Assembly: GCA_903893565.1 (NCBI GenBank)
Contig: CAITMU010000125.1
Location: 20,578 to 84,577, forward strand
Length of the DNA stretch: 64,000 bases
Source: an uncultured beta proteobacterium
Lineage (GTDB): Bacteria > Pseudomonadota > Gammaproteobacteria > Burkholderiales > SG8-41
Direction: 5' to 3'
Both the position numbers and the translations under genes were made by a program. Below are positions 1-34,083 of the stretch, piece by piece. The notes beneath the pieces are model-generated. The model was not told the DNA's origin. It ran no database searches and was given only the letters and a program-made list of their open reading frames with translations. The first letter of the stretch is position 1, and every line of letters begins with the position of its first letter.

Positions 1-303
1 CGGAAAAATATGCGATTACAAACCGACCCCAGTGTTATTTACGGTATGAAAAATACCTATACCGGACATTTAAAACACCATGATCTTTTGGTGGATACCC
101 CGTGGAACACTTATACTCGTTCCGGATTGCCTCCCACACCGATTGCCCTTGCGGGTTTGGCGGCCTTAAAGGCAGCCTTACATCCTCGGGTGAGTGATAA
201 ACTTTACTTTGTTGCGCGGGGGGATGGTAGTTCGCAGTTTTCAACTACTCTTGAAGAACACAATCTGGCCGTTAAGCGCTATCAAAGATCAGGAAAACCG
301 TGA
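1..303 (+). CDS. mltG: Endolytic murein transglycosylase MltG/YceG, C-terminal part (5' end lies outside the window)
   Basis: The frame is open from base 1. The translation (LQTDPSVIYG...NTYTRSGLPPTPIALAGLAALKAALHP...LYFVARGDGSSQFSTTLEEHNLAV) matches the conserved YceG/MltG C-terminal domain. The gene order mltG-tmk-holB is canonical. Confidence 0.85.
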   Translation, partial: RKNMRLQTDPSVIYGMKNTYTGHLKHHDLLVDTPWNTYTRSGLPPTPIALAGLAALKAALHPRVSDKLYFVARGDGSSQFSTTLEEHNLAVKRYQRSGKP

Positions 304-920
304 TGCGAGGGCGATTTATTACGTTGGAAGGGATGGACGGGGCGGGTAAGAGCAGTCATTTAAGTTGGATCCCTGACTTTTTTGCCAGTCGTGGAATTAA
401 GCTATGCGTCACACGTGAGCCCGGCGGCACCCCCTTAGGGGAAGCCTTGCGCCAAATGCTTTTAAATACCACCCAAAAGTCTCACCCCGATACCGAGGCA
501 CTTTTGATGTTTGCGGCGCGCCGAGAGCATATCGCTCAAGTCATAGAACCCGCCTTATCCTCAGGACAATGGGTGCTTTGTGATCGATTTACTGATGCCA
601 CCTTTGCTTACCAGGCTGGAGGAAGTGGGTTGGATTGGGGGCGAATTGAGCAGCTAGAAGCTTGGGTGCAAGGTGAGCTTCAACCCCACTTAACCTTGTA
701 TTTTGATGTGCCGAGCCAAGTGGGAAAGCAAAGAACGCAATCGGTTCGTGAGCCCGATCGATTTGAATCCGAAGGGATGGCCTTTTTTGATCGAGTGCGG
801 GCTGGATATCTTAAAAGACTTAAACAATTTCCTCATCGTATGCATCTGATTGACAGCACTCAAAGTTATGAGGATGTTAAAGTAATGGTTGAGAGTATAA
901 TCTTAAGTAATTGTTTTTAA
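303..920 (+). CDS. tmk: Thymidylate kinase
   Basis: P-loop ITLEGMDGAGKSS at the N-terminus, a DRF motif, and about 205 aa. The ATG at 303 overlaps the mltG stop (TGATG). Confidence 0.95.
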   Translation: MRGRFITLEGMDGAGKSSHLSWIPDFFASRGIKLCVTREPGGTPLGEALRQMLLNTTQKSHPDTEALLMFAARREHIAQVIEPALSSGQWVLCDRFTDATFAYQAGGSGLDWGRIEQLEAWVQGELQPHLTLYFDVPSQVGKQRTQSVREPDRFESEGMAFFDRVRAGYLKRLKQFPHRMHLIDSTQSYEDVKVMVESIILSNCF

Positions 921-988
921 TTGATAAAGTTATTAAAACCGTATTATTAATGTTATTTATTGGAAATATATAATAAGACTATGATTTT

Positions 989-1993
989 ATGAGTTTTTAT
1001 AGTTGGCACAAGCCTGCTTTTGATGAATTAGTCCGTCGAGCCGATCGTCTACCGCATGCCCTATTAATACGGGGGGCATCGGGTATCGGTAAGCGGGCTT
1101 TTGCCACGGCATTAGCCCGAGGATTATTGTGCGAAAAGCCTCTTAGCACTCTGGTTGCTTGTGGACATTGCGTCGCATGCCATTGGTTTGACGAGGGCAG
1201 CCACCCTGATTTTAGGTTGCTTCAACCGGAAGCCGATCAAGAGGTTGGGGAGGAGGAGTCTAGTGAAACGGATAAAAAGAAGAAAAAAGACATTTCTGTC
1301 GCTCAAATTCGCCAATTACCCCACTTTATCAACATTAGTAGTCATCGAAGTGGTCCTAAAATCATCATCATTCAACCCGCGGAGGCCATGAATGTGAATG
1401 CGGCCAACGCGTTGCTCAAAAATTTGGAAGAGCCGCCTGAAAATACCTTTTTTTTGTTAGTGACCCACAGACCTCAAATGTTAGCCGCTACGATTCGTAG
1501 TCGTTGCCAGCAAATACCCTTACCGATGCCCACAAAGGAAGAGTCCTTGTCTTGGTTGGAAGGCGTGGGGGTCAAAAATGTGGCGGTTGCGCTGGCTCAA
1601 GCGGGTGGGGCTCCTTTGTTAGCGCAAGAGATGGACAATGAAGCCCATTGGGCCTTACGCGCTCAGTTCTTGCAGGCCTTGTCCGCTTCGCCCTTTGATC
1701 CGCTGGGTTTAGCCGAAAAAATGGCCAATGAATCGATTGCTCAATTAGTCGGATGGTTACAAAGATGGACCTATGATGTGTCACAAGTCTGTTTTTCCAT
1801 TGAGCCTCGCTATAACCCTGATTTTAAAGAGATTTTAAATAAACTATCCACCTCGGTCCGAGGGCTAGAGATGCTACGATTTCATCGGGAGTTGGTTCGC
1901 TTTCAGCGGGTCATTAACCATCCCTTGAATCCACGGCTACTGCTCGAATCGTTTTTCTTACGTTACGCTCAATTGGTCAGAAAAAAGAATTAA
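989..1993 (+). CDS. holB: DNA polymerase III delta-prime subunit
   Basis: Clamp-loader AAA+ fold with GASGIGKRAF, the zinc module CGHCVACHWF and the SRC motif (IRSRCQ). It lies immediately downstream of tmk. Confidence 0.9.
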   Translation: MSFYSWHKPAFDELVRRADRLPHALLIRGASGIGKRAFATALARGLLCEKPLSTLVACGHCVACHWFDEGSHPDFRLLQPEADQEVGEEESSETDKKKKKDISVAQIRQLPHFINISSHRSGPKIIIIQPAEAMNVNAANALLKNLEEPPENTFFLLVTHRPQMLAATIRSRCQQIPLPMPTKEESLSWLEGVGVKNVAVALAQAGGAPLLAQEMDNEAHWALRAQFLQALSASPFDPLGLAEKMANESIAQLVGWLQRWTYDVSQVCFSIEPRYNPDFKEILNKLSTSVRGLEMLRFHRELVRFQRVINHPLNPRLLLESFFLRYAQLVRKKN

Positions 1994-1998
1994 TCATC

Positions 1999-2775
1999 AT
2001 GTATATCGATTCACACTGTCATCTGGATTTTCCGGATTTAGTTGGACGCCTCGATGAAATATTACACCGAATGCAGGAAAACTCGGTGGATCGGGCCCTT
2101 TGCGTGAGTGTCAATCTGCAGGATTTTCCACAAGTGCTGGCCCTGGCAGAAAAGCATCCCCATTTGTATGCCTCAGTGGGTATTCATCCTGATTATCCGG
2201 ATGTTCCAGAAACCACGGTCGAAGAGTTAGTGCGTCTATCCCTGCACCCCAAAATCGTAGCGATTGGTGAAACCGGATTAGACTATTACCGGCTCACCGG
2301 TGACCTCGATTGGCAACGTGAGCGTTTTCGTATTCATATTCGTGCCGCCGTCAAAACTCAAAAGCCCTTGATTATTCATACGCGCTCATCAAGCGAAGAC
2401 ACCATTCGCTTGATGCAGGAGGAGGGGGCCAGTCAAGCCGGTGGTGTCATGCACTGCTTTACGGAGTCATGGGAGATTGCAGAGGCGGCCATGGCGATGG
2501 GGTTTTATATCTCTTTTTCTGGAATCGTGACTTTCAAAAGCGCTAAAGCCTTGAAAGAAGTCGCCCAAAAAATGCCCTTAGATCGCATGCTGATTGAAAC
2601 CGATTCACCCTATCTTGCCCCCGTGCCTTTTAGAGGTAAGATTAATGAGCCGGGCTATGTACGATATGTGGCAGAAGAAATTGCTCGCTTAAGGCAATGT
2701 CCGGTTGAGGATATTGCTGAGGCCACCAGTGCTAATTTTTTAAAATTATTCAAAATCAAGGAGGGGAGGGCATGA
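1999..2775 (+). CDS. TatD-family metal-dependent hydrolase (YcfH-like)
   Basis: N-terminal IDSHCHLD metal-binding motif, C-terminal LIETDSPYLAP, 258 aa. It follows holB, as in many proteobacteria. Confidence 0.9.
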   Translation: MYIDSHCHLDFPDLVGRLDEILHRMQENSVDRALCVSVNLQDFPQVLALAEKHPHLYASVGIHPDYPDVPETTVEELVRLSLHPKIVAIGETGLDYYRLTGDLDWQRERFRIHIRAAVKTQKPLIIHTRSSSEDTIRLMQEEGASQAGGVMHCFTESWEIAEAAMAMGFYISFSGIVTFKSAKALKEVAQKMPLDRMLIETDSPYLAPVPFRGKINEPGYVRYVAEEIARLRQCPVEDIAEATSANFLKLFKIKEGRA

Positions 2776-3425
2776 TCCAATGGCTACCGAAGGTGTTGTT
2801 GTCCATCGCATTGTTAGGCCTAACAGGTGTTTACGCGCCGCTCATACAGGCTGACACCTATAACGATGTTTTACGTGCCGTTGAAATGAATTTTGCAAAA
2901 GAAGTCAATGGATTACTTAAAAAAGGGGTCGATGTTGATACCACCAATCAGGAGGGCGAAAGCTTACTTTTAATGGCATGCAAAGCGGGCAATCGCGATG
3001 TGGTTGAAGTTTTGTTAAATGCCAAGGCTAACGTTAATCTTCTGAATCAATGGGGCGAATCAGCGATTATGTTAGCGTCCTTAAAAGGATATACCTCAAT
3101 TGTAAAATTACTGCATAGTCATGGCGCCCACATTGAGAAGCGAGGATGGAACGCATTCATGTATGCCGCGGCTAATGGGCACTTAGACATCTTGCGGTTT
3201 TTGTTTGAACAGGGGGCAAAACTAAATTCATATTCTGAAAACGGCACTACGGCGCTGATGATGGCGGCTCGAGAAGGACAAACTGAAGCTGTTTTATGGC
3301 TCATGTCTAAAGGGGCCGATATTAATCACAAGTCAGACAGTGGTTATACCCCGATGAAAGTGGCTAAGATGAGGGGCATGGAGGATATTGTGAAATTATT
3401 ATCCAAGGCGGGGGCCAAAGAATAA
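2772..3425 (+). CDS. Secreted ankyrin-repeat protein
   Basis: N-terminal signal peptide (LLSIALLGLTGVYAPLIQA) followed by about five ankyrin repeats (for example GESLLLMACKAGNRDVVEVLL, GTTALMMAAREGQTEAVLWLMSKGADIN). The start overlaps the tatD stop (ATGA). Confidence 0.85.
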   Translation: MIQWLPKVLLSIALLGLTGVYAPLIQADTYNDVLRAVEMNFAKEVNGLLKKGVDVDTTNQEGESLLLMACKAGNRDVVEVLLNAKANVNLLNQWGESAIMLASLKGYTSIVKLLHSHGAHIEKRGWNAFMYAAANGHLDILRFLFEQGAKLNSYSENGTTALMMAAREGQTEAVLWLMSKGADINHKSDSGYTPMKVAKMRGMEDIVKLLSKAGAKE

Positions 3426-3554
3426 GGCTATTTTTGGATATAGAAAAATTGATCAAACCAAGCAGGGGTAATACGACAGAATGCAGCTATGTGTTGGTAT
3501 TTATAATGTAATAAAATTATATAGTTTGAATGTTTCTGTCCTACACTGTATTCA

Positions 3555-3593
3555 TTGACACGACTCTCTAATATGTACATAATAATGTACATA
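3555..3593 (+). promoter_or_regulatory. Near-consensus sigma70 promoter with overlapping direct-repeat operator, upstream of the toxin-antitoxin operon
   Basis: TTGACA (3555-3560), a 17-nt spacer, then CATAAT (3578-3583). ATGTACATA occurs twice (3573-3581 and 3585-3593, 12 bp apart), and each copy contains the palindrome TGTACA. An AAGGGG RBS and the ATG at 3609 follow. Confidence 0.5.
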
Positions 3594-3608
3594 TTTACAA
3601 GGGGTTTT

Positions 3609-3833
3609 ATGCGGGAAGCTACGTTCACCATGTTGCGCAATCACGCCAAGGATTATTTTGATGCCGTCGAAGGGGGGGATACGGTTCGTATCTTTCGCAA
3701 CGGCAAAGCCATTGCCGAAATTGTGCCGGTCCGTTCGGGTGTTCCATCCTGGAAAAGGCAAGCCACACCCTTGACGGTTAAGGGCTTGTCATTGAGTCGG
3801 GAAATACTGAGCGATCGTGAAAAGTCGGCGTGA
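3609..3833 (+). CDS. Type II antitoxin, Phd/YefM-like (partner of the PIN toxin)
   Basis: 74 aa (MREATFTMLRNHAKDYFDAVEGGDTVRIFRNGKAIAEIVP...), an N-terminal fold typical of Phd/YefM antitoxins. There is a good RBS, and the stop overlaps the toxin GTG start (GTGA). The longer ORF-track start at 3555 would begin inside the promoter. Confidence 0.8.
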   Translation: MREATFTMLRNHAKDYFDAVEGGDTVRIFRNGKAIAEIVPVRSGVPSWKRQATPLTVKGLSLSREILSDREKSA

Positions 3834-4246
3834 AGGTATTTCTGGATACCTCGGCTTTTGCGAAGCGATATGTTGCAGAGCAAGGATCGGACAAAGTGTT
3901 AGAGTTGTGCCAGCAGGCAGATAGTCTCGTCGTTAGTGTCATTTGCCTACCGGAATTAATCTCCACGCTGTCCCGCCTTCTACGGGAAAAGAAATTCGCC
4001 AAAGCGGATTACCAAAAACTGAAGGCTGAGGCGATGGCGGATCTGGCGGATGCCGACATCTGCCTGATCACACCGGACATTCTGGTCTCAGTGGTTCCCC
4101 TGCTGGAGACGTATCCACTTCGAGCAATGGATGCCCTTCATATAGCCTGTGTGCTTGCCGTCAAGCCTGACATTTTTATTTCGGCTGACCATAGGCAACT
4201 TTCGGCAGCACGAATGGCGGGGCTCAAGATTGTTGATGTGTCATGA
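3830..4246 (+). CDS. vapC: PIN-domain ribonuclease toxin (VapC family)
   Basis: 138 aa with the four PIN acidic positions in the expected context: FLDTSA (D6), LPELIS, RAMDALHIA and ISADHRQ. It has a 4-nt overlap with the upstream antitoxin. Confidence 0.9.
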   Translation: MKVFLDTSAFAKRYVAEQGSDKVLELCQQADSLVVSVICLPELISTLSRLLREKKFAKADYQKLKAEAMADLADADICLITPDILVSVVPLLETYPLRAMDALHIACVLAVKPDIFISADHRQLSAARMAGLKIVDVS

Positions 4247-4315
4247 GTCTCTAACGCAAATAAAAGGCGCTGTCCGGCCAAAAGATGCATTTGAGCACCT
4301 CAACTCCACATTAGC

Positions 4316-4513
4316 CCTCAAGAGATAGCATGGAGCCATTCGAGGAGAATTGTCCCATCCCATCAGCACACGAGAAATGTTACTGAGGCTCGCTATTTTT
4401 TGATTCAGTTTCTGCTCAATCAGTGCAATCTCTCCAAGCGGGCGATTGCTGAATCGATTGGCGTGAGTCCTGAAGTGGACCCCATCTTCTCGCAACACTA
4501 TCAATTACCATAA
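4316..4513 (+). pseudogene. Start-less remnant of a helix-turn-helix gene (possible recombinase or transposase accessory fragment)
   Basis: An open frame with no ATG reads ...RYFLIQFLLNQCNLSKRAIAESIGVSPEVDPIFSQHYQLP*. The segment LSKRAIAESIGVSPE looks like an HTH motif. It is flanked by non-coding AT-rich DNA and ends 70 bp before the dif-like site. Confidence 0.3.
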
Positions 4514-4582
4514 ATACAATGATGTGTTGCATTAAAAATGGTAGTTTTAAGCTAATTAAGCAACACTAATAAATGTACTATT

Positions 4583-4610
4583 GATTCGTATAATGTATAT
4601 TATGTAAAGT
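4583..4610 (+). other. dif: Candidate dif site (XerC/XerD chromosome dimer resolution site)
   Basis: GATTCGTATAA-TGTATA-TTATGTAAAGT matches 23/28 positions of the E. coli dif core GGTGCGCATAA-TGTATA-TTATGTTAAAT, including the entire central hexamer and the inner arm halves. It is intergenic and occurs once in the window. Confidence 0.7.
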
Positions 4611-4876: not shown

Positions 4877-5860
4877 ATGAGAAATAAAAATATGGAGGAA
4901 ACCCTATTGATCATCCTGTTAAGCTTTGTGGGACTCATGATGATGAATCCTGCTGTGGCTCTTGATTACCCTAATCGTCATATAAGACTAGTCGTGCCAT
5001 GGCCTCCTGGCGGAGGCATTGATATTACAGCGCGTGCTATAAGCCCGAAGTTAACAGAAAATTTAGGTCAATCGGTGATAATCGATAACCGTCCCGGTGC
5101 CGCTGGCATGATCGGCACCGATGCGACTGCACGGGCTGCACCGGATGGATATACCTTAATATTAGGTGCAGCCGGTCCACATGCGATATTGCCACTGTTA
5201 AATCCAAAGTGCCCCTACGGACTGAAAGAATTTGACGAAGTGATCCATTTCGCAGATACATTCTATGTCATGGTCGTTAACCCTTCCCTTCCCATCAATA
5301 CCGTTGAGCAATTGATTCAAGCCGCGAAGTTAAAACCAGGTGAATTAACGATCGGATCTTCCGGTTCAGCAACCCCAGCCTTTATCTCGGGTGAATTGTT
5401 TCGTGTTCGATCCGGTGTCAATCTCAATCCTGTTTTCTACAAAGGCGCTGGCACACCAGTGCTGGAAGTGATGGCCGGTCAGATTTCAATGACCATTGAG
5501 ACGATTTCACCGATATTGCCTTACGTTCAAAGCAAAAAATTAAGAGCGCTTGCGATGACCGCATCGCAGCGATCCAATCAAATTCCTACAGTGCCAACCT
5601 TTGCTGAATCAGGTTTTCCTGGTTTTGAAGTGGTTAATTGGTATGGAATTTTAGTCCCCGCAAAAACCCCCTCCACCATCATTCAAAGATTAAATAAAGA
5701 ATTGACCTCTCTTATCAAAATCCCTGAAGTGCATGACCGATTAGTGGGATTTGGATTAGAGGTTTTTACAAGCACTGCTGAAGAGTTTACGAAATTTCGA
5801 AAACTTGACATGGTTAAATGGGCAAAAATCATTAAGGATATCAATTTACAATATCAATAA
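4877..5860 (+). CDS. Bug/TctC-family periplasmic solute-binding protein (tripartite tricarboxylate transporter receptor)
   Basis: About 325 aa with a signal peptide and family-typical segments (YPNRHIRLVVPWPPGGGIDITAR, DNRPGAAGMIG, APDGYTL, YKGAG). It is paralogous to the ORFs at 37211 and 46910. Confidence 0.9.
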   Translation: MRNKNMEETLLIILLSFVGLMMMNPAVALDYPNRHIRLVVPWPPGGGIDITARAISPKLTENLGQSVIIDNRPGAAGMIGTDATARAAPDGYTLILGAAGPHAILPLLNPKCPYGLKEFDEVIHFADTFYVMVVNPSLPINTVEQLIQAAKLKPGELTIGSSGSATPAFISGELFRVRSGVNLNPVFYKGAGTPVLEVMAGQISMTIETISPILPYVQSKKLRALAMTASQRSNQIPTVPTFAESGFPGFEVVNWYGILVPAKTPSTIIQRLNKELTSLIKIPEVHDRLVGFGLEVFTSTAEEFTKFRKLDMVKWAKIIKDINLQYQ

Positions 5861-5917
5861 ATGATCTAAAGCCTTTAGGAGAAATGCTTTTTCAAAGACG
5901 CTGAAATGACGGCCTTA

Positions 5918-6709
5918 TTAAAGATCAATTCCATAATCTTGTTTGGCTTTTTTCATCACGTCAGGGCCAGGCATTTGATAGAGCATTTTTCGACTCACGA
6001 CCGTACCCATGATTTTATGAAGTTTAACGGCCGTCTCCGTCATTTTTATTAGCATGGCTAATCCGTCGACGATTAAGGCCCCTTCTATTTCTCTAAGCCC
6101 TCGCCTCGCTTGCATAACGGCATGTGAGCCACAAGGAATGATGACCTCTGCACCGGCTCTGACGGCTCTTTTTGCCGCAAGATCAAATTCGTTCATAATC
6201 CTTTCATGCGCCTTAGGATCAATAAATCCTTGCCGAAAATCAGTTAAATCTGGAATGTTCATCGCTTCAATAGACGCTAAGCGATCAGTAAGGCCATAGA
6301 GCATTAATTTTTGCTCATAAGACAGGGCAAATTTAGGATTGGGCGTTATGAGTGAAAAACGTCTTCCCATCATGCAAGCCATGAGAGCCGTTGTTTCCAG
6401 AAAACCCATAACGGGAATATCAAGAATTTCTCGCGCTTCGACTAAGGCTGGATCGGTGGAATTAAGACTCACGAATGCGTCGTAGCGTTTTTCTCCAGTC
6501 GCGGCTTTGCATTTTAAAACGTTTTCAATAATATCAGGCATGTCGATAGCCTGGAAAAAACGAAACTGTTCTCCTAGACCCCCTTTAGCCGTGCCATGCA
6601 CTTCAATCTCAACGCCCGGGTCGGCTATGGATCGAAGGTGTTGCTCTAAGGCTTCGTGAAAATTAGGATTTCTTTGTCGAGATGAAAATACCTGAACCCA
6701 TAATCGCAT
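5918..6709 (-). CDS. Asp/Glu/hydantoin-racemase-family protein
   Basis: About 263 aa with the racemase-like two-domain pattern (DAFVSLNSTDPALVEAREILDIPVMG ... AEVIIPCGSH). The start is set at the ATG at 6709 (MRLWVQV), which has a GGGGGG RBS. The longer ORF would overlap the upstream gene. Confidence 0.7.
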   Translation of the reverse strand: MRLWVQVFSSRQRNPNFHEALEQHLRSIADPGVEIEVHGTAKGGLGEQFRFFQAIDMPDIIENVLKCKAATGEKRYDAFVSLNSTDPALVEAREILDIPVMGFLETTALMACMMGRRFSLITPNPKFALSYEQKLMLYGLTDRLASIEAMNIPDLTDFRQGFIDPKAHERIMNEFDLAAKRAVRAGAEVIIPCGSHAVMQARRGLREIEGALIVDGLAMLIKMTETAVKLHKIMGTVVSRKMLYQMPGPDVMKKAKQDYGIDL

Positions 6710-6737
6710 GATTAAAATCCCCCCATTTATTTTTTTA

Positions 6738-7622
6738 TCATTTTTTATTTTTAAAGCCAAACAATTTAGCGGGGTTATCCACTAAGATCTTTTGCTGAAT
6801 ATTTTTATCAGGCATCCATTGAGCAATTAGATTAAATAAATCAATCGAATGGACTCGATGTGAATTGGATAGATAAGGGTAATCACTCCCCCAAATAACA
6901 TGATCGGGCGCTGCTTCAATCAGTGTTCTTGCTATGACAGTTGAGTCCTCAAACAAAGGTTCACTGGCCATTCGATAAGGAGCGGTTAATTTCATGTAAC
7001 AACGACCTGGGCCATGCTTTAAAAAATCAACCATTTTGAGAAGGCCGGGTTGTTTAGCACCATCACGGGCTAGGAACATTCCAAAGTGGGCCAAGGTAAA
7101 TTGAGATTTTAGATTTTTGTAGACATCTAACATCTCCACTATTAACCAACTGGGTGACAAAATATCCAGTTGCCAACCGATTTCAGCGCATCGGGCATCC
7201 AGTCTTAATAACCGTGGTAAATGTTTTTCCATGAGCCCAGCTTCCACAGGGCGATTGGGCGGACCTAAGTTAAATCGAATACCGACAACCCCAGCGCTGT
7301 GTAACCGGGCTAACTCAGCATCGCTAATGTTTTCATCAACATCGGCAATACCTTTGGCATTATCACCACACAGTTTGATCGCGTCCAGCATGCATGAGTT
7401 ATCACGACCGTAAGTGCTCGGTTGTGTAAATACCATACGCTCTATTCCGCATTGCGTCGCAAAGTCCTGATATTGCGCCATGTAATCAGCCAACGGAAGT
7501 GCGGGAGGAACGTTTCTTTTTTCAGCGCTATAAGGATAGGTGACAGGATCTCCAAATACATGCAGATGCGTGTCGCAACTCAATGGGGGGGCTTTTAAAA
7601 TCGGCTTTTTATTATCGATCAC
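6738..7622 (-). CDS. Amidohydrolase-2 family hydrolase (LigI/lactonase-like)
   Basis: N-terminal metal motif CDTHLHVF and C-terminal WGSDYPY, 294 aa. The start is GTG with an AGGAAG RBS. Confidence 0.85.
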   Translation of the reverse strand: MIDNKKPILKAPPLSCDTHLHVFGDPVTYPYSAEKRNVPPALPLADYMAQYQDFATQCGIERMVFTQPSTYGRDNSCMLDAIKLCGDNAKGIADVDENISDAELARLHSAGVVGIRFNLGPPNRPVEAGLMEKHLPRLLRLDARCAEIGWQLDILSPSWLIVEMLDVYKNLKSQFTLAHFGMFLARDGAKQPGLLKMVDFLKHGPGRCYMKLTAPYRMASEPLFEDSTVIARTLIEAAPDHVIWGSDYPYLSNSHRVHSIDLFNLIAQWMPDKNIQQKILVDNPAKLFGFKNKK

Positions 7623-7837
7623 TATGGCTTCTTCCTCTATTGTTAATGGCGGCTAGCGCATTGAGGATTTTTTTTCGTTCAATGGCGCTTTACAAGTATT
7701 CTGATACTACCAAATATTGTTAGAAAATTTGTCTTTTGAGTATTTTTTTAATAATAATCTAAGATAGGACATTCATGTAAAATGAATGATATAAAAATTC
7801 ACTGGTGTTGATCCAACTAAATGAGTCGGGGAAAATA

Positions 7838-8623
7838 ATGATGCAACCAAATAGAATTCGTCGGGTTATTGCGCAGGGTGGCGTTGCCGTGGGAATGCAA
7901 ATCATGGAATTTGGTACTCGTGGCATGGCAAAGATTTTAGCCACCACCGATATTGATTACGTGATCATTGATATGGAGCATAGTGGATTTGGCTTAGATC
8001 GTGTGGCCGACATCATTGCTTGGTTTAAGGCAACTGATATAGCCACGATTGTACGTGTGCCTGAAAATCTTTATCATTATTTGGCGGGTGCTCTGGATGC
8101 AGGTGCAACGGGAGTGCAAGTGGCGAGTATCGAAACCGCCGAGCAAGCTCGCGCTGTCATTCAATCAGTTAAGTATGCGCCGATGGGGAATCGTGGATTA
8201 GGATTAACTGCCGCACATAGTGATTTTAAAACCCCGAAGGCCTCAGAATATTTACCATTTAAAAATAAAGACACGGTCGTGATCATGCAAATTGAAACCG
8301 TTAAAGGTCTTGAGAATTGCGATGCAATTGCTGCGGTAGAAGGGTTGGATGTGCTTGCGGTGGGTGCAAATGACATGACTTTTTCTTTAGGTATTCATGG
8401 TCAATTTGAGCACCCTCTTCTGACTCAAGCGATGGAAAAAGTTATTGCCAGTTGTAAAAAACATGGAAAAATTGGTAAATGTCATCCTCACCATACTGAG
8501 CAAATCGCACAATTTGCCAAAATGGGATACTCCATGATGATGGCCAATAGTGATGTCTCGCACCTTCGTTCTGGAGTTAAGGCAAGCGTTGAGAAGCTTC
8601 GTAGCCAGAGTAAAATTTCTTGA
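7838..8623 (+). CDS. HpcH/HpaI-family 2-keto-3-deoxy-acid aldolase
   Basis: About 261 aa: DYVIIDMEHSG, IVRVPEN, MQIETVKGLEN and GANDMTFSLG are typical of class II HpcH/HpaI aldolases. The start is moved to the ATG at 7838, behind a GGGG RBS. Confidence 0.85.
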   Translation: MMQPNRIRRVIAQGGVAVGMQIMEFGTRGMAKILATTDIDYVIIDMEHSGFGLDRVADIIAWFKATDIATIVRVPENLYHYLAGALDAGATGVQVASIETAEQARAVIQSVKYAPMGNRGLGLTAAHSDFKTPKASEYLPFKNKDTVVIMQIETVKGLENCDAIAAVEGLDVLAVGANDMTFSLGIHGQFEHPLLTQAMEKVIASCKKHGKIGKCHPHHTEQIAQFAKMGYSMMMANSDVSHLRSGVKASVEKLRSQSKIS

Positions 8624-8938
8624 TTTGTAAGAATTAACGAATCTTATTTTTCAGGTCGTTTAATCCTATTTTTCATAGGGCAAGTTTTTTTGACGACACT
8701 TGACATGAAGCGAAGTGCAGTGCCATGCAGTGCGCGAAGCGGTGAACCTTTTTCGAACGGCAAATTCGAAATCGACCTCAATGCTGTCTGGGAGACGGCA
8801 CAGGAATGACTGCCAGAGTTGCCGAAGCCACTATCTGCAGTGAGGCAGAACACCTCGAATCAATCGGTTTGATAAGATTTTCTTCGAATTCAATCCTAAG
8901 TGTATTGCGCTTTTTTTTGACAGTTTTTTTTAAATCAC

Positions 8939-10135
8939 TTAAAAAGCGGAAAGACCCGTTTGCGCACGACCTAAAACTAATGCATGAATATCATGGGTGC
9001 CTTCCAGTGTATTGATCGTTTCCATATTCATCAGATGACGAATCACATGGTATTCATCAGAAATCCCATTACCCCCCAGCATATCGCGAGCGTTTCTAGC
9101 AACTTCCAGTGCTTTACCGGTGCAATTTCTTTTAACCAAAGAAACCATCTCAGGGGTGGCTTGCCCTTTTTCTCTCAAACGAGATAAATGTAAGCTCGAT
9201 AATAAACCCAACGTAATTTCAGTTTGCATATCCGCTAATTTTTTCTGGATCAATTGATTCGCCGCTAAGGGCTTGCCAAATTGCTTGCGATCCATCGTGT
9301 ATTGTCGAGCAATATGCCAACAGGCTTCTGCAGCGCCCATAGCGCCCCAACAAATGGAAAAGCGGGCATTGTTTAGGCAGCCAAAAGGTCCCTTCAAACC
9401 CTTGACACCGGGTAACAAATTTTCATCGGGCACGAATACTTCATCCATCGTGACTTCACCTGTTTGTGAAGCCCTGACTGAAAACTTACCCTCAATTTTT
9501 CGGGTAGATAGACCTTTCATGCCACGTTCTAAGATAAACCCTCTGACAACCCCCTCCTCGTCTTTGGCCCAAATAACCAGAACATGAGCGATCGGAGCGT
9601 GAGTAATCCAAAGCTTGCTGCCCGTTAAAGACCAGCCACCCGGAACCTTTTTGGCTCGAGATTTCATGCCGCCTGCATCAGAACCGTGATCAGGTTCTGT
9701 TAGCCCGAAACAGCCCAAGAGTTCACCCGTTGCCATTTTAGGAAGATATTTTTGGCGATGTTCCTCACTGCCATAGGCATAGATGGGGGTCATCGCAAGA
9801 CCGGTTTGTACGCTGCACGCGGATCTAAACGCAGTGTCAACCCGTTCTAATTCTCGCATGACAAGACCATAAGCAACATAACCGATACCGGCGCATCCAT
9901 ATCCTTCAAGAGGGGCCCCCAGAAAACCTAATTCCCCCATCTCTCGCATGACGATAGGATCGAAGGATTCGTTACGATTCCAATCACGGATTCGAGGGAG
10001 CAATTTTTCTTGTGCATAGGCGCGAGCCGTATCACGGATCATGCGTTCGTCATCCGTCAGTAAATCTTCAATCAGTAACGGGTCTTCCCATTTGAATTGT
10101 CCACCAATCAAAGTGACCTTCGTAAAATCAGTCAT
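8939..10135 (-). CDS. gcdH: Glutaryl-CoA dehydrogenase
   Basis: Acyl-CoA dehydrogenase fold with a GcdH-type N-terminus ([22 protein letters not shown]), LTEPDHGSD and a C-terminal [13 protein letters not shown]. The start is set at the ATG at 10135 (MTDFTK), because the longer ORF runs into the upstream terminator hairpin. Confidence 0.9.
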
Positions 10136-10170
10136 ATCAATCTCTCTGCATGCCGTTATAAAGCGATATT

Positions 10171-10203
10171 GAAAAAATAAAGGCCGGTGTGATTTCACCG
10201 GCC
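10171..10203 (-). terminator. Rho-independent terminator downstream of the thiolase gene
   Basis: An 8-bp GC-rich stem GGCCGGTG/CACCGGCC (10182-10189 and 10196-10203) with a 6-nt loop, followed on the minus strand by TTTATTTTTTC. A second perfect palindrome, GGGGGCAATTGCCCCC, lies about 30 bp further toward the thiolase stop. Confidence 0.6.
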
Positions 10204-10248
10204 GGTCTTAGATTACTTGAACCGGAGGGGGCAATTGCCCCCGTTCGA

Positions 10249-11451
10249 TTACACGCGTTCCAGAATAACCGCGGTGCCCTGCCCTCCACCAATACAAAGA
10301 CTGACGAGCGCATAACGTCCGCCGGTGCGTTGCAATTGACGTGCGGCTGTTAAAGCAATTCTCGCTCCAGAGGCCCCTAAGGGATGACCGATCGCAATGG
10401 CTCCACCGTTCGGATTAACACGCGGATCATCGAAAGCGACGTCCAAGCCTTTTAAACAACCCAAGACTTGCGCGGCAAAGGCTTCATTAATTTCAATGAT
10501 GTCCATGTCTTTAATGCTCATGCCTAAACGAGCCAATGCCTTTTTCGAGGCGGCTACTGGACCAATACCCATGATATGAGGAGGAGCCCCGTGAGAGGCA
10601 GAGGCAATAATACGCACCAACGGTTTAATACCCGCTTTTTCGCCAGCCGCTTTGGAACCGACGGTGAGGCATACGGCGCCATCGTTAACACCCGAGGCAT
10701 TGCCCGCGGTGGTAATGCCATCTTTATAGAGCACCTTCATTTTGGCTAATGTGGCAACATCACTTTCGGGCCTGGGATGCTCATCATCACAGATGGCGGG
10801 AACTGGGCCTTTACGGGTCGGTGGTAATTCAATGGGGATAATTTCATCTTTAAAAAATCCGGCCGCCTTGGCTGCCGCATATTTTTTTTGTGAAGAAGCC
10901 GAATAGATGTCGGCTTGTTCACGGGTAATGCCGTATTCTTTTGCCAAATTGTCAGAGGTTTGGGGCATTTGGTCATCACCAAAACGCTTGACCAGTGCTG
11001 GGTTAGAAAACCGAGGGCCGATAGTGCTATCGTAGAATTTGATACCACGATCAAAGGCGGATTCTGATCGGCTCATGACAATGGGTGAACGGCTCATGCT
11101 TTCGACGCCACCCACAATAAATACATCGCCCTCGCCTGCCGTAATCGCGTGCGATGCATGCACTAAAGCGCCTAAGCCACTAGCGCAATTACGTTGAATC
11201 ACCGTACCCGGAGTCTCAATGGGTAAATCAGCCATTAAAAGCGCGTGACGAGCCACACAACGGCTGTCTTCACCGCCTTGATTGGCACAGCCCACGATCA
11301 CGTCTTCTATTTGGCTTGGCTTGAATGCGGAATTTGCCATGACCGATTTAATCACACTGCCCAACAAATCATCTGGACGCACTTTGGCTAATACGCCGCC
11401 ATGACGACCAAAGGGGCTACGCTTACCTTCATATAAATAGGCATCTAACAT
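10249..11451 (-). CDS. Acetyl-CoA C-acetyltransferase (thiolase II)
   Basis: Thiolase signatures: QRNCASGLGA (active-site Cys), IGHPLGASGARI and LCIGGGQGTAVILE. 400 aa. Confidence 0.95.
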   Translation of the reverse strand: MLDAYLYEGKRSPFGRHGGVLAKVRPDDLLGSVIKSVMANSAFKPSQIEDVIVGCANQGGEDSRCVARHALLMADLPIETPGTVIQRNCASGLGALVHASHAITAGEGDVFIVGGVESMSRSPIVMSRSESAFDRGIKFYDSTIGPRFSNPALVKRFGDDQMPQTSDNLAKEYGITREQADIYSASSQKKYAAAKAAGFFKDEIIPIELPPTRKGPVPAICDDEHPRPESDVATLAKMKVLYKDGITTAGNASGVNDGAVCLTVGSKAAGEKAGIKPLVRIIASASHGAPPHIMGIGPVAASKKALARLGMSIKDMDIIEINEAFAAQVLGCLKGLDVAFDDPRVNPNGGAIAIGHPLGASGARIALTAARQLQRTGGRYALVSLCIGGGQGTAVILERV

Positions 11452-11495
11452 TTTTAAATTCCTTTATTGTTTGAGGTTTTTTCGTTTTATTTTGA

Positions 11496-13025
11496 TTACG
11501 GTTCTGGCGTCAAAAGGGAAACGCCTAATTTAGCGCGACGTGTGAGCCAGATATTAGGACGATATCGTGGATCTGCATAAATTTTATTCATGCTACTTAA
11601 AATTCTGTAGATATTTTTCACGCCTAAAACATCGGCAAATTTAAAGGGCCCATTCGGATAGTTAAGTCCCAATGTGACCGCTTTGTCGATGTCGGCTGGA
11701 GAGGCGGTGCGACTTTGTGCAATCGAGCATCCAATATTGACAATCATGGCTACAATTCTTTGGGCAATAAAGCCCGGACTATCTCGACAAACCGTCACAG
11801 GTACGCCATCACTGGCGAGTAAGCCGTGAGCTGCCTCTTTATAGGCAGCTTGCGTCAATGGTGTACTCATTATAGTGCGCCGTTTCACCATCGGAAACAA
11901 CGTATCAACTGCCATGGTACGGGTCGGATCCAGTCCTTGGTCAGTGGCTGCTGTGGTCGCATCCTCTCCGATAGGAGTGACTAGAATCAAGGCTTTGGCA
12001 GAAGGAGTTTTACCTGTCTCAAGGTTTGCGCCCAACTGGCTTAGTAGAGCACTTAATTTGGCGTGGCCTTCGGCTTCCACCGGGCTAATCCACACTGAGT
12101 CTGGGCGAGATTTGGGAGCGGGAGCTTCTGGGGCCACAATCGCTTTCATATCAGCGTCGTAATTGTAAAAGCCTTTTTTACTTTTACGCCCTAGCACGCC
12201 AGCTTCATAACGCTCTTGCATGATTAAACTGGGTCTATAGCGCGGTTCTTGGAAAAACTGATTGTAAATCAGCGCTGATGCAGGTTGAGTGACATCCAAC
12301 CCCGTCAGTTCCATGAGCTCAAAGGGGCCCATACGAAAGCCACCGACGTCACGCATGACGCGGTCGACATCAGCGAAATTAGAGATGCCTTCATGAACAA
12401 GATGAGAGCCTTCGAGGGTGAATCCACGCCCTACTTGATTGACAAGAAATCCGGGTGCATCGATGAGTCTCACGGGTTCCCGGGTCATGCGGCGCCCCAG
12501 GTCCATCAACGCATCACAAACCCAACTCTCGGTTAATAGCCCTGAGATCACCTCGACTAACTTCATCAAGGGAACGGGGTTAAAGAAGTGGAATCCGGCA
12601 AAACGATGAGGCGTTTTTAACTTTGCACCAATGGTGGTGACTGACATCGAAGAGGTGTTCGAAACGAGAATACATTCGGGAGTTACGATCGACTCGAGTT
12701 CAGCAAATAAAGCGCGCTTGGCCTCAAGATTTTCAATAATCGCTTCGATTACGACGTGACAATTGCCCATCTGCTTATGGCTATCGACAATTTCGATGCG
12801 ATCTACGGAAGCTTTGGCTTCGGCTTTACTGATGGTGCCTTTTTCAGCAGCCCGATCTAGCATCTTACCGATGAACTCTTTGGCCTCTGCAGCACCACCG
12901 GGTCTGGCATCGGTCATTAAAACCTTCATGCCGCCTGCGGCTGTTACTTGGGCAATACCACGCCCCATGGCACCCGTACCAATCACTCCGACTGTCAAGT
13001 CAGGCCGAGAAATGTCCAACTTCAT
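11496..13025 (-). CDS. 3-hydroxyacyl-CoA dehydrogenase (long form with duplicated C-terminal domain)
   Basis: N-terminal Rossmann motif VGVIGTGAMGRGIA, then an HCDH catalytic region (NTSSMSV, FHFFNPVP) and a second C-terminal domain. 509 aa. Confidence 0.9.
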   Translation of the reverse strand: MKLDISRPDLTVGVIGTGAMGRGIAQVTAAGGMKVLMTDARPGGAAEAKEFIGKMLDRAAEKGTISKAEAKASVDRIEIVDSHKQMGNCHVVIEAIIENLEAKRALFAELESIVTPECILVSNTSSMSVTTIGAKLKTPHRFAGFHFFNPVPLMKLVEVISGLLTESWVCDALMDLGRRMTREPVRLIDAPGFLVNQVGRGFTLEGSHLVHEGISNFADVDRVMRDVGGFRMGPFELMELTGLDVTQPASALIYNQFFQEPRYRPSLIMQERYEAGVLGRKSKKGFYNYDADMKAIVAPEAPAPKSRPDSVWISPVEAEGHAKLSALLSQLGANLETGKTPSAKALILVTPIGEDATTAATDQGLDPTRTMAVDTLFPMVKRRTIMSTPLTQAAYKEAAHGLLASDGVPVTVCRDSPGFIAQRIVAMIVNIGCSIAQSRTASPADIDKAVTLGLNYPNGPFKFADVLGVKNIYRILSSMNKIYADPRYRPNIWLTRRAKLGVSLLTPEP

Positions 13026-14038
13026 AAAACCCCCTCAGAAAATTTATAGGCAAAAAGCCCTCACACAACCATAAGTCAGGCCGTCAAATCAAAAGTTTTG
13101 CCAAAGAAACAGTGGCTTAAACGAAATAATTGTCATTATTCAACGATTTTTACAATTATAGGCGTTGCTCTTCATGGTGGCAATCATACGTCGCGGAGCT
13201 TAATTGCCAGTCTTTTGGCGCAAAAAGAATAATGCTGACAAAAGGGTCCATACAACACTTAAATGGGGTCTATTCCATTGCCAAGAAAAAGTAAAGCACC
13301 TCTCAGAAAAGCGTAAAAATTGGCTGAAAATCCTGCCCGACGATGAATTTAAGGATCTTGATAAGATTAAGAAAAAGCACGATAAAATGATGAAGCTTAA
13401 AAATCCTAAAAAAACCCCCTTTTTTTTGCAGTGCGATTATCTTAGCCTATTCATTCTCGGAAATTAACTTGATCCAAGACCCTCGTCCACAGCATTCCAC
13501 AAAGGCCACAGACCCAAAAACACCTCGTGCTAGAGCCTCCTTAGGGCAAGTGGCTTCGACCATGTTTTGGTGTCTTTGTATGATAGGTCGAAAAAATACT
13601 TGGGAAAGAGATGGGGTGAAAATCTCGATCGGACAAGCCGTAATAGGTGGCGTTATCGCTGCCATAGTGATCGTTAGTGGTTTATTGCTTTTGGCACGTT
13701 GGGCCGTGCACTAAAAAAAATTAAATTTCATACTGGGATAAATAAAAAGAGAACACGATGAGTCATTTTCTATCAAAGTCGAAGCTTCAATCACATAATC
13801 AGTGTTCACGAAGACTTTGGCTAGAACTGAATCATCCCAAAACTGCCTCGAAATTTTTTTTATCAAAGGACTGCTAATTAGCCATCTAGCCAGAACTCCC
13901 AATGCAAAGGCAAAGCACTCCCCTTACTCCCGTCCTACAATAGTATTTTATTCTCGCATTTCTTCCGAATTTTTTTGCCTATACGATTCCATCACATTTT
14001 TTTTACAAAAAAGTTAAAGGTTTTTTCTCTTTTATTTC

Positions 14039-15742: not shown

Positions 15743-15791
15743 GTCAGTGATCGGTTATAATTTAGCCTTTTGAAAAGAAGCCCTTATACCT

Positions 15792-16896: not shown

Positions 16897-16899
16897 GTC

Positions 16900-18399: not shown

Positions 18400-18453
18400 A
18401 AAATTAATTTTTTTCGAATAATACTTATTTTTATAGCATTCTGAGCCCTCATC

Positions 18454-20406: not shown

Positions 20407-20516
20407 GCACAGGGCTTCATCCAGTAAAACACTTCATAGACGACCCGCTAACCTATTTTTTAAGGTGAATTATCACCCAAAGTGTACTGCTTGACGGGGC
20501 GCTAGAGTGGGCTTTA

Positions 20517-21317: not shown

Positions 21318-21340
21318 ATATAAACCACCGAATTGAACAC

Positions 21341-23093: not shown

Positions 23094-23190
23094 ACTGCAG
23101 ACTATTTTAGGCTTGGATTCACGTATACTGTTTTGGATGGAAGCCATCAAATAATCCGTTACGGCTTCGAATAAGAAAACGATAGACCCT

Positions 23191-24096: not shown

Positions 24097-24215
24097 ATCC
24101 CCCCCAGCCTTTTACATGACCCACCTTCCCTGCCTTTTTTTTGCCAAGAAACATAAGCCAAGCGGATTAAGCCACTGTAGAATATCTCTCAAAGCCTAAA
24201 ATAGAATTGCTATTT

Positions 24216-26015: not shown

Positions 26016-26016
26016 A

Positions 26017-31227: not shown

Positions 31228-31243
31228 TTAGGCAAACCAAGCC

Positions 31244-34082: not shown

Positions 34083-34083
34083 A

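What the first reader, a model, noticed from the sequence alone, without database searches (positions are those of the whole stretch)
4583..4610. Candidate dif (XerC/XerD) site, suggesting the window spans the replication terminus
Bases 4583-4610 read GATTCGTATAA-TGTATA-TTATGTAAAGT. Compared with the E. coli dif core as I remember it (GGTGCGCATAA-TGTATA-TTATGTTAAAT), 23 of 28 positions agree. The matches include the whole 6-bp central region and the inner, mutually palindromic halves of both arms (ATAA / TTAT). The site is intergenic, lies in AT-rich DNA, and I saw no second copy in the window.

There is anecdotal by-eye support from KOPS orientation. The E. coli-type KOPS motif GGGNAGGG occurs on the + strand to the left (2763-2770). 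Its complement occurs just to the right (5281-5288 and 5286-5293). Both orientations point at the site. I also saw one opposing copy at 62559-62566, and several right-side copies fall inside C-rich tracts, so this tally is not decisive.
Basis: partly seen in the sequence, partly recalled or inferred. Interest (0 to 1): 0.7.

Follow-up and report, generated by a model that had tools for sequence, protein, structure and literature searches.

The report
Chromosomal dif site at replichore junction
The 28-bp sequence is a textbook XerC/XerD chromosome-dimer-resolution site (dif) of an uncultured marine betaproteobacterium. It sits where the chromosome's directional FtsK-guiding motifs converge, so it is real but of an ordinary, well-known kind.

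Summary

- **Strength of the match.** A weight matrix built from 48 published proteobacterial dif sites scores it 35.8 bits. The median for those sites is 32.2, the next best hit in the window is 10 bits, and chance expects about 4e-6 such hits per 4-Mb genome.
- **The arms are attested elsewhere.** The XerC arm equals that of the Acinetobacter ADP1 site. The XerD arm equals that of the Bordetella pertussis site.
- **Conservation.** The identical 28-mer occurs once each in 9 contigs of a distant lineage (housekeeping proteins 34-63% identical). Their flanks are unrelated to the window's, but the site lies downstream of tmk-holB-tatD there too.
- **Polarity.** GGGNAGGG motifs run 4(+):1(-) over 22 kb to the left and 2(+):19(-) over 59 kb to the right. 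The GC-skew change point lies within about 0.6 kb of the site.
- **Controls.** E. coli dif behaves the same way. Two of three relatives without a dif after tatD show no polarity switch, and the third is mixed.

Verdict: a genuine chromosomal dif at the replichore junction, and a new member of a known kind. Single copy per chromosome, the global skew maximum and Xer activity could not be tested.

The parts
4583..4593 (+). dif, XerC-binding arm GATTCGTATAA
   Evidence: Identical to the XerC arm of the Acinetobacter sp. ADP1 dif listed in Carnoy & Roten 2009, Table 1. It is the only match with <=1 mismatch in the window.
4594..4599 (+). dif central region TGTATA (6 bp), where strand exchange takes place
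   Evidence: Identical to the E. coli central region. Its 6-bp length is the length found in all proteobacterial dif sites analysed in PMC2731167.
4600..4610 (+). dif, XerD-binding arm TTATGTAAAGT
   Evidence: Identical to the XerD arm of the Bordetella pertussis, Geobacter sulfurreducens and Caulobacter crescentus dif sites in PMC2731167 Table 1. The whole site scores 35.8 bits on a 48-site weight matrix.
2763..2770 (+). Nearest left-arm KOPS (GGGNAGGG), pointing rightwards at dif
   Evidence: Three more + strand copies lie at -13609, -5544 and -5013 on same-species contigs that extend the window leftwards, against one - strand copy at -1175.
5281..62281 (-). Right-arm KOPS: 19 copies of GGGNAGGG on the - strand, pointing leftwards at dif. 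Starts are 5281, 5286, 10277, 19229, 19864, 23982, 29473, 29552, 29661, 33508, 39770, 42582, 44640, 44824, 44830, 45019, 48134, 57550 and 62274. Two opposing + copies lie at 40065 and 62559.
   Evidence: This is the most skewed and most abundant of 42 G6-A-N control patterns. Copies fall in + genes, - genes and intergenic DNA alike. A 3rd-order Markov model expects 4.5 copies on the - strand and 2.3 on the + strand. Collapsed to loci more than 500 bp apart, the count is 13 against 2 (p = 0.007).
300..3425 (+). Conserved left-flank housekeeping cluster tmk-holB-tatD-ankyrin gene, which ends the left replichore
   Evidence: Pfam assignments. The same cluster precedes the identical 28-mer in the distant MAG lineage and precedes a variant dif in L021.
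3426..4582 (.). Strain-variable accessory islet between the core genes and dif. It holds a Phd/YefM-VapC(PIN) toxin-antitoxin pair (3609-4246, +) with an operator-like palindrome at 3571-3596, and a short HTH-like ORF fragment (4400-4513, +).
   Evidence: This DNA is absent from relatives, where dif lies about 90 bp after tatD or 56 bp after the ankyrin-like gene. The sister contig L005 carries an extra 294 bp with a VapC N-terminal fragment.

Best explanation
Bases 4583-4610 are the chromosomal dif site of this bacterium. The organism is an uncultured marine betaproteobacterium (Burkholderiales-like), judged from NCBI names attached to a 99%-identical Maf cluster representative and a 100%-identical TatD fragment.

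**Mechanism, inferred from the established E. coli/V. cholerae model and not shown here.**
1. XerC binds the left arm GATTCGTATAA and XerD binds the right arm TTATGTAAAGT.
2. After replication, a chromosome dimer traps two dif copies at the septum.
3. FtsK hexamers read GGGNAGGG (KOPS) motifs, which point towards dif from both sides, and translocate DNA until they reach XerCD-dif.
4. FtsK-gamma activates XerD to exchange the first pair of strands across the 6-bp TGTATA centre. XerC resolves the Holliday junction, giving two monomers.

**Shown here.**
- The sequence architecture and its strength.
- Strict conservation of the site inside diverged or unrelated flanks.
- Its intergenic, low-GC setting.
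- Convergence of KOPS polarity, and a GC-skew change point, at the site.

The window therefore spans the junction of the two replichores, with about 4.6 kb of one arm and 59 kb of the other.
For: **1. Sequence.** The site matches E. coli dif at 23/28 and the published Bordetella pertussis and Acinetobacter ADP1 dif sites at 26/28 each. Each arm is identical to one of those two. The weight-matrix score is 35.8 bits against a median of 32.2 for 48 published sites. The next best window hit is 10 bits, and chance expects 6e-8 per window.

**2. Published dif hallmarks (PMC2731167).**
- 16 self-complementary positions, against 16.3 +/- 3.0 reported.
- 21% GC against 47% for the window.
- Non-coding location and a 6-bp centre.

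**3. Conservation.**
- The exact 28-mer occurs once per contig in 3 GTDB MAGs and 6 metagenome contigs.
- Nine of these contigs belong to a lineage whose FabG, FabF, YceG, Tmk, HolB and TatD are only 34-63% identical to the window's.
- Their flanks show no significant similarity to the window's (z about 0).
- Within that lineage the immediate flanks vary while the 28-mer is invariant.
- The site is also present in three same-species contigs, L004, L005 and L007.

**4. Polarity in the window lineage.**
- KOPS run 4:1 over the 22-kb left arm and 2:19 over the 59-kb right arm. Fisher p = 0.005, or 0.014 after collapsing clusters.
- The motif is over-represented only on the presumed leading strand: 19 observed against 4.5 expected.
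- Its strand is independent of gene strand.
- The resulting skew, 22-23 of 25-26 motifs or about 0.88, matches published KOPS values of 0.80-1.0 (PMC3384302).

**5. Polarity in the sister lineage.** Every left copy is on the + strand and every right copy on the - strand. The nearest copy is 84 bp to the right of the site.

**6. GC skew.**
- The two-segment change point is at window 3.9-4.2 kb.
- On the left arm the + strand is G-rich even in the - strand genes rne (+0.045) and maf (+0.04). On the right arm - strand genes average -0.04.

**7. Controls.**
- E. coli MG1655 dif +/-25 kb gives KOPS 6:0 | 0:3, with a local GC skew that is not cleanly inverted (-0.008 | -0.048).
- Relative L021 has a variant dif (31.7 bits) at the same tatD-ank position. 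Its skew flips from +0.03 to -0.11, and its few KOPS (2:1 left, 0:1 right) are compatible with a switch.
- Relatives L020 and L022 have no dif within 10 kb of tatD, and their KOPS and skew do not flip. L023 also lacks a dif, but its few KOPS are mixed (1:1 left, 1:2 right) and its skew goes from +0.031 to -0.012.
Against: - No complete replicon is available. Single copy per chromosome and coincidence with the global cumulative GC-skew maximum are therefore untested.
- Right-arm GC skew is close to zero: the replication component is -0.007 on all positions and +0.014 on third codon positions, neither significant. Within the 73-kb window-plus-L004 composite the raw cumulative maximum falls at window 29.2 kb, not at the site.
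- The left-arm KOPS count in the window's own lineage is small (4:1).
- GGGNAGGG ranks only third among all skewed octamer families on the right arm, so it would not have stood out de novo.
- prfB-lysS-recJ and other housekeeping genes at 14-29 kb lie head-on to the inferred fork direction.
- xerC, xerD and ftsK are not in the window, so their presence in this genome is assumed, not shown.
Confidence: 0.9

Rival explanations
1. The site is a junction (attL/attR-type) or secondary dif-like site left by an integrative mobile element exploiting Xer (IMEX). The primary dif used for dimer resolution would then lie elsewhere.
For: - DNA immediately to the left of the site is accessory and varies between strains: a Phd/VapC toxin-antitoxin pair, an HTH-like ORF fragment, and a 294-bp indel carrying a VapC fragment in L005.
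- Inoviruses do use this kind of site. IMG/VR contig L012 carries Zot, DUF2523 and G2P replication genes next to AGTTCGTATAATGTATATTATGTAAAAT.
Against: - No second dif-like site or half-site pair exists in the window or in L004/L005. The next best hit is 10 bits in the window, and there are no full-site matches with <=11 mismatches of note in 1-10000.
- No phage, integrase or replication genes flank the site.
- The identical site sits at the same syntenic position in a distant lineage that lacks the accessory DNA.
- KOPS converge on this site itself.
Confidence: 0.04
2. It is a functional XerCD dif site, but the replication forks do not normally meet here. Under this reading dif and the terminus are displaced from one another, or the window's right arm was recently rearranged.
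For: - GC skew on the right arm is about zero, and it is positive over 14-29 kb where housekeeping genes (recJ, prfB, lysS, acs) lie on the + strand.
- Nothing to the right of the site is syntenic with the sister lineage.
- In published genomes dif lies anywhere from a few hundred bp to about 100 kb from the skew maximum (PMC2731167 Table 1).
Against: - KOPS polarity stays leftward throughout the right arm, including 14-29 kb, where copies at 19229, 19864 and 23982 are all on the - strand.
- The skew change point coincides with the site.
- The true E. coli dif shows equally untidy local skew.
Confidence: 0.1
3. It is a chance AT-rich palindrome, or another protein's operator such as a toxin-antitoxin or transcription-factor site, that merely resembles dif.
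For: The region is AT-rich. A genuine operator-like palindrome, ATATGTACATAATAATGTACATAT, lies 1 kb away at 3571-3596.
Against: - Chance expects 6e-8 such sites per window, or 3e-6 even with a 30% GC background.
- The site is conserved 28/28 in unrelated flanks and next to different neighbouring genes.
- The asymmetric outer arms match known XerC and XerD arms specifically.
Confidence: 0.01

Closest known systems
E. coli K-12 dif (GGTGCGCATAATGTATATTATGTTAAAT), the XerC/XerD/FtsK chromosome dimer resolution site
   Same: - 11 + 6 + 11 architecture, with an identical TGTATA centre and identical inner arm halves, 23/28 overall.
- Intergenic and low in GC.
- Flanked by converging GGGNAGGG motifs.
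   Different: - Five outer-arm substitutions, at positions 2, 4, 7, 24 and 27.
- Orientation relative to KOPS is opposite. Here the XerC arm faces the arm whose KOPS are on the + strand, whereas in MG1655 the XerD arm does. I know of no evidence that this matters.
- KOPS are about four times denser here: 1 per 3 kb, against 1 per 12 kb published.
Predicted dif of Bordetella pertussis (AATTCGCATAATGTATATTATGTAAAGT) and of Acinetobacter sp. ADP1 (GATTCGTATAATGTATATTATGTTAAAT), from Carnoy & Roten 2009
   Same: 26/28 to each. The XerD arm is identical to B. pertussis and the XerC arm identical to ADP1. B. pertussis is also a betaproteobacterium rich in TctC/Bug receptors, as this window is.
   Different: The combination of arms is new relative to that table. 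Those sites are themselves computational predictions.
IMEX attachment sites (CTXphi/TLC at V. cholerae dif1, the gonococcal genetic island difA/difB)
   Same: The sequence type is the same. Accessory DNA abuts the site. An inovirus contig carries a near-identical site.
   Different: There is no second flanking site and there are no element genes in the window.
Acinetobacter plasmid pdif modules and plasmid cer/psi sites
   Same: These are XerC/XerD-type sites. pdif modules often carry toxin-antitoxin genes, and a toxin-antitoxin pair lies next to this site.
   Different: - The replicon is chromosomal, carrying holB, tmk, the fab cluster, prfB, lysS, thrC and others.
- The site is single rather than a flanking pair of sites.
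- It has a 6-bp centre and no accessory-sequence requirement is implied, unlike cer (8-bp centre; PMC2731167).

Membership tests
Chromosomal dif (XerC/XerD dimer-resolution site) | 28 bp made of two partly palindromic 11-bp arms around a 6-bp centre, homologous to experimentally characterised dif sites | tested here: met
   23/28 to E. coli dif. The score is 35.8 bits on a 48-site matrix whose median is 32.2, with 16 self-complementary positions. Criteria are taken from PMC2731167.
Chromosomal dif (XerC/XerD dimer-resolution site) | Non-coding location, and G+C below the genome average | tested here: met
   No ORF of 60 aa or more in 4505-4876, and the gene calls on L004/L005 leave the site in an uncalled gap. 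The site is 21% GC and the window 47%.
Chromosomal dif (XerC/XerD dimer-resolution site) | Present in different strains of the species and conserved in relatives | tested here: met
   Identical in the same-species contigs L004, L005 and L007, and in 9 contigs of a lineage with 34-63% protein identity. A variant site occupies the same synteny position in L021.
Chromosomal dif (XerC/XerD dimer-resolution site) | Single copy per chromosome | tested here: inconclusive
   Single in about 82 kb of composite sequence, and one match per MAG or contig in relatives. No closed genome is available.
Chromosomal dif (XerC/XerD dimer-resolution site) | Located at the replichore junction, shown by KOPS convergence and a GC-skew switch | tested here: met
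   Met locally. KOPS run 4:1 on the left and 2:19 on the right, and the skew change point is at 3.9-4.2 kb. The global skew maximum could not be tested.
Chromosomal dif (XerC/XerD dimer-resolution site) | Cognate xerC, xerD and ftsK (with gamma domain) encoded in the genome | not testable with these tools
   None of the three is in the window.
Chromosomal dif (XerC/XerD dimer-resolution site) | XerCD binding and FtsK-dependent recombination at the site | not testable with these tools
   This needs an experiment.
IMEX (integrative mobile element exploiting Xer) junction | Element bounded by two dif-like sites and carrying phage or element genes | tested here: not met
   There is no second site above 10 bits and no half-site pair. 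No PHROG hits were found for the adjacent small ORFs, and no Zot, Rep or integrase gene is present.
pdif module (Acinetobacter-type) | Cargo flanked by a pair of XerC/D-like sites, usually on plasmids | tested here: not met
   The site is single and the context is chromosomal housekeeping genes.

The most novel reading that the evidence does not exclude
The strip between the last core gene and dif (3426-4582) may be a chromosomal counterpart of Xer-dependent 'dif modules'. Under this reading, small toxin-antitoxin cassettes are repeatedly inserted at and lost from the XerC side of dif by Xer recombination. That would explain three observations:
- The strip varies between strains.
- It is absent from relatives.
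- It holds a Phd/VapC pair plus VapC and HTH fragments.

A related reading starts from the 28/28-identical dif and its tmk-holB-tatD left flank, which are shared by lineages labelled Betaproteobacteria and Acidiferrobacteraceae/Arenicellales. This could reflect an unusually stable, anciently fixed replichore end.
Probability: 0.1. Interest if true: 0.4.

Novelty: new member of a known kind. Interest (0 to 1): 0.2.

Why it matters
The site anchors the replication and segregation map of an uncultured marine betaproteobacterium that is known only from metagenomic contigs. It marks the replichore junction, gives the orientation of 80 kb of sequence relative to fork movement, and shows that E. coli-type GGGNAGGG KOPS are used, at unusually high density. 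It is useful for scaffolding or validating MAGs and as a landing site for finding Xer-exploiting mobile elements. It adds no new biology to the XerCD/dif/FtsK paradigm.

Tried and rejected
- **Rfam.** Scans of the whole window at gathering thresholds, of 4200-4950 at E<=1, and of L008/L011 gave nothing at or near the site. The only hit was one tRNA, in L008.
- **tRNAs.** No tRNA or tmRNA genes were found in the window.
- **Second site or IMEX scar.** I scanned the window for a second dif, and the window's first 10 kb plus L005 for half-sites or an IMEX scar. Nothing turned up. The palindrome at 3571-3596 is an operator-like inverted repeat upstream of the antitoxin gene, not a Xer site.
- **Flank homology.** I tested whether the window's flanks are homologous to those of the sister lineage. 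They are not (z about 0). A short C-rich match at a similar offset (+47 against +52) is not significant.
- **Small ORFs next to the site.** Pfam and PHROGs searches of the 87-aa ORF at 4241-4504 (- strand) found no family.
- **Splitting GC skew.** Separating replication and coding components with third-codon positions was inconclusive on the right arm.
- **De novo octamer ranking.** GGGNAGGG ranks third of 2758 families on the right arm. That supports it as an a priori test but not as a discovery.
- **My remembered dif orientation.** I recalled that E. coli dif lies XerC-arm-first on the MG1655 + strand. The sequence shows the reverse.
- **Extending the left arm.** Using Maf and RluC homologues I reached only 22 kb, because the available contigs are short.

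Full report
**Observation.** Window 4583-4610 reads GATTCGTATAA-TGTATA-TTATGTAAAGT.
- It matches the E. coli dif core at 23 of 28 positions, including the complete central hexamer and the inner halves of both arms. Nothing else on either strand of the window comes within 9 mismatches.
- Under the window's base composition, 7e-5 sites at >=23/28 are expected per window.
- The site is intergenic. No ORF of 60 aa or more lies in 4505-4876, and the independent gene calls on same-species contigs leave the gap between the PIN and TctC genes empty.
- It is AT-rich: 21% GC for the site and 34% for 4505-4876, against 47% for the window.

**How dif-like is it?** Table 1 of Carnoy & Roten 2009 (PMC2731167) lists 48 representative proteobacterial dif sites.
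- The window's XerC arm GATTCGTATAA is identical to that of Acinetobacter sp. ADP1. Its XerD arm TTATGTAAAGT is identical to that of Bordetella pertussis, and also to those of Geobacter and Caulobacter. Overall identity is 26/28 to each of the first two and 25/28 to Pseudomonas aeruginosa. Every one of the five 'mismatches' to E. coli is therefore an attested dif variant.
- A log-odds matrix built from the 48 sites scores the site 35.8 bits. The median of the 48 is 32.2 and their range 6.3-41.6.
- The next best position in the window, apart from the site's own reverse strand, scores 10 bits.
- The exact tail probability is 4.6e-13 per position. That is 6e-8 per window and about 4e-6 per 4-Mb genome, or 3e-6 per window even with a 30% GC background.
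- It has 16 self-complementary positions, against the 16.3 +/- 3.0 reported for dif sites.

**Conservation.**
- The exact 28-mer was found once each in three GTDB MAGs labelled Acidiferrobacteraceae or Arenicellales and in six JGI metagenome contigs.
- These loci fall into two flank families. The window type comprises L004, L005 and L007, at about 47% GC. The 'MAG type' comprises L001-L003, L006 and L008-L011, at about 53% GC.
- MAG-type housekeeping proteins are only 34-63% identical to the window's: FabG 60%, FabF 61-63%, YceG 37-42%, Tmk 43%, HolB 34-38% and TatD 55%.
- Their DNA flanks show no significant similarity to the window's, with local alignment z about 0 against shuffles. The 28-mer is nevertheless 28/28 identical.
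- Within the MAG type, the bases immediately around the site vary while the 28-mer is invariant.
- In both lineages the site lies downstream of the same cluster...fabG-acpP-fabF-pabC-yceG-tmk-holB-(pilZ)-tatD. Nothing to the right of the site is shared: bactofilin and a response regulator in the MAG type, TctC and others in the window.

**Organism.** A cluster representative 99% identical to the Maf of the same-species contig, and a 100% identical TatD fragment, are named by NCBI as 'MAG... [Betaproteobacteria bacterium]'. The next relatives are 'Burkholderiales bacterium'.
- The window carries core chromosomal genes: tmk, holB, tatD, recJ, prfB, lysS, bamD, rluD, thrC, hom, nadC, pcm and surE.
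- It also carries several TctC/Bug receptors and PHA-synthesis genes.
- This is therefore a main chromosome, not a plasmid.

**Is it at the replichore junction?** I extended the window leftwards with same-species contigs (L004, L015, L024) to give a 22.3-kb left arm.
- GGGNAGGG occurs 4 times on the + strand and once on the - strand to the left. To the right it occurs twice on the + strand and 19 times on the - strand. Fisher's exact p is 0.005. It is 0.014 when right-arm copies less than 500 bp apart are collapsed, giving 13 against 2.
- The closest flanking copies are + at 2763 and - at 5281, so the switch brackets the site.
- The bias is not a composition effect. Right-arm GC skew is only -0.011, and GGGNAGGG is the most skewed and most abundant of 42 control patterns with the same composition. 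A 3rd-order Markov model expects 2.3 (+) and 4.5 (-) copies, with a maximum of 9 in 60 simulations.
- It is not a coding-strand effect either. The - strand copies lie in + genes (6), - genes (7) and intergenic DNA (6).
- The overall leading-strand skew of about 0.88 is in the published range for KOPS: 0.91-1.0 in E. coli and 0.80-0.92 in V. cholerae (PMC3384302).
- In the MAG-type loci every left copy is + and every right copy is -. The first - copy lies 84 bp from the site.

**GC skew.**
- Cumulative G-C rises steadily from -9 kb to about +5 kb, then plateaus and declines. The best two-segment change point is at window 3.9-4.2 kb.
- Left-arm + genes have skew +0.096, and right-arm + genes +0.027 (p = 0.009).
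- The two left-arm - strand genes are still G-rich on the + strand: maf +0.04 and rne +0.045. Right-arm - genes average -0.04.
- The right arm's replication component is close to zero, however: -0.007 on all positions and +0.014 on third positions, neither significant. Within the 73-kb window-plus-L004 composite the raw cumulative maximum is at window 29 kb.

**Controls.**
- Positive: in E. coli MG1655, +/-25 kb around the real dif gives KOPS 6:0 | 0:3. Local GC skew there is -0.008 | -0.048, so it is not cleanly inverted either.
- Comparative: four relatives were found through TatD at 71-79% identity.
  - L021, a 947-kb contig, has a dif-like CGTGCGTATAATGTGTATTATGTCAAAT (31.7 bits) 56 bp after the ankyrin-like gene that follows tatD. 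Its GC skew flips from +0.029 to -0.109. KOPS there are few (2:1 left, 0:1 right).
  - L020 and L022 have no site above 10 bits within 10 kb. Their KOPS stay on the + strand on both sides, and their skew stays positive.
  - L023 also has no site above 10 bits, but its few KOPS are mixed (1:1 left, 1:2 right) and its skew goes from +0.031 to -0.012, so it is not a clean negative.
- Across the clearer of these loci, polarity flips where a dif is present and does not where it is absent.

**Surroundings and the mobile-element rival.**
- Between the ankyrin gene (2772-3425, overlapping the tatD stop) and dif lies 1.16 kb that relatives lack. It holds a Phd/YefM-VapC pair (3609-4246) and a short HTH-like ORF (4400-4513).
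- The sister contig L005 has a further 294 bp with a VapC N-terminal fragment.
- This looks like accessory DNA accumulating next to dif, as happens with Xer-exploiting elements. A viral-contig scan did find an inovirus-like contig (Zot, DUF2523, G2P Rep) abutting a near-identical site.
- The window itself has no second dif-like site or half-site pair. It has no phage or element genes, and the small ORFs have no PHROG hits.
- The same site exists at the same position in lineages without the islet.
- The site is therefore the resident dif, not an element junction.

**Mechanism (inferred).** By homology with the E. coli and V. cholerae system, XerC binds the left arm and XerD the right arm. FtsK is guided by the converging KOPS, reaches the XerCD-dif synapse at the septum and activates XerD. 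Two sequential strand exchanges across TGTATA then convert a chromosome dimer into monomers. None of the proteins is in the window, and no activity was tested.

**One difference from E. coli.** Relative to KOPS polarity the site is in the opposite orientation to MG1655 dif. To my knowledge orientation is not critical for dif function.

**Verdict.** The finding is correct and well supported. It is a canonical dif site at a replichore junction in an uncultured betaproteobacterium. That makes it a new member of a very well-known kind, useful for annotation but not surprising.

Noticed in passing
window 3555-4246 (+), palindrome at 3571-3596: A Phd/YefM-type antitoxin and a PIN (VapC) toxin pair lie here. 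A perfect inverted repeat, ATATGTACAT-AATA-ATGTACATAT, sits just upstream and is probably the autoregulatory operator. The pair is absent from relatives that carry dif directly after tatD or the ankyrin gene.
   Followed up: partly
L005:12466-12760, compared with window about 3455-3470: A same-species contig has an extra 294 bp between the ankyrin gene and the antitoxin. It encodes a VapC-like N-terminus (MFALDTSVLSDAVKSEPHPA...). The strip beside dif is therefore a strain-variable graveyard of toxin-antitoxin remnants.
   Followed up: partly
window 4400-4513 (+) and 4241-4504 (-): These short ORFs have no family hit. The + strand one reads ...LSKRAIAESIGVS..., which looks like a helix-turn-helix fragment and is probably a pseudogene remnant next to dif.
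   Followed up: partly
L012 (IMGVR_UViG_3300005086_000096):131-158: This 5.3-kb inovirus-like contig (Zot, DUF2523, G2P-type Rep) begins 130 bp before the dif-like site AGTTCGTATAATGTATATTATGTAAAAT. It is probably a filamentous prophage integrated at a host dif (an IMEX) in another bacterium.
   Followed up: partly
L001/L006/L008/L009/L011, +50 to +150 right of dif (alignment A2 columns about 220-329): In the sister lineage a non-coding block between dif and the bactofilin gene is almost invariant, more conserved than the bases immediately around dif. It has no Rfam hit. It could be a 5' leader or small RNA. It also contains the first - strand KOPS, at +84.
   Followed up: partly
L021:11473-11500 (JGI Ga0597486_0025, 947-kb contig): A relative with 71% TatD identity carries a different dif variant, CGTGCGTATAATGTGTATTATGTCAAAT, at the same tatD-ankyrin-dif position. 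Three other relatives (75-79% TatD identity) have no dif within 10 kb. The tatD-dif linkage is therefore recurrent but not universal.
   Followed up: yes
window 15792-16896 (+): prfB (release factor 2) shows the canonical programmed +1 frameshift. A short [30 protein letters not shown], ends at CTT TGA C (15870), and the main frame continues in +1.
   Followed up: yes
window 4877-5860, 37211-38194, 46910-47890: The window holds three TctC/Bug-family periplasmic receptor genes, and relatives hold more. It also has many CoA-transferase, acyl-CoA dehydrogenase and HpcH-aldolase genes. This profile is typical of Burkholderiales-type organic-acid metabolism.
   Followed up: no
window 24207-27536 and 49199-50980: There are two PHA synthase (PhaC) genes. 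One sits with an SDR-type reductase gene (phaB-like) and a PHB-accumulation regulator gene (phaR-like). The second lies in a low-GC stretch (about 40% at 49-52 kb).
   Followed up: no
window 13026-14038: A 1-kb stretch upstream of recJ has no convincing ORF and low GC. In many proteobacteria xerD and dsbC lie near recJ, but no xer gene is present here.
   Followed up: partly
window 44119-45554: Two glycine-zipper (YMGG-like) small protein genes and C-rich intergenic tracts hold a cluster of four - strand GGGNAGGG copies (44640-45019). These inflate the raw KOPS count, so I also report cluster-collapsed counts.
   Followed up: yes
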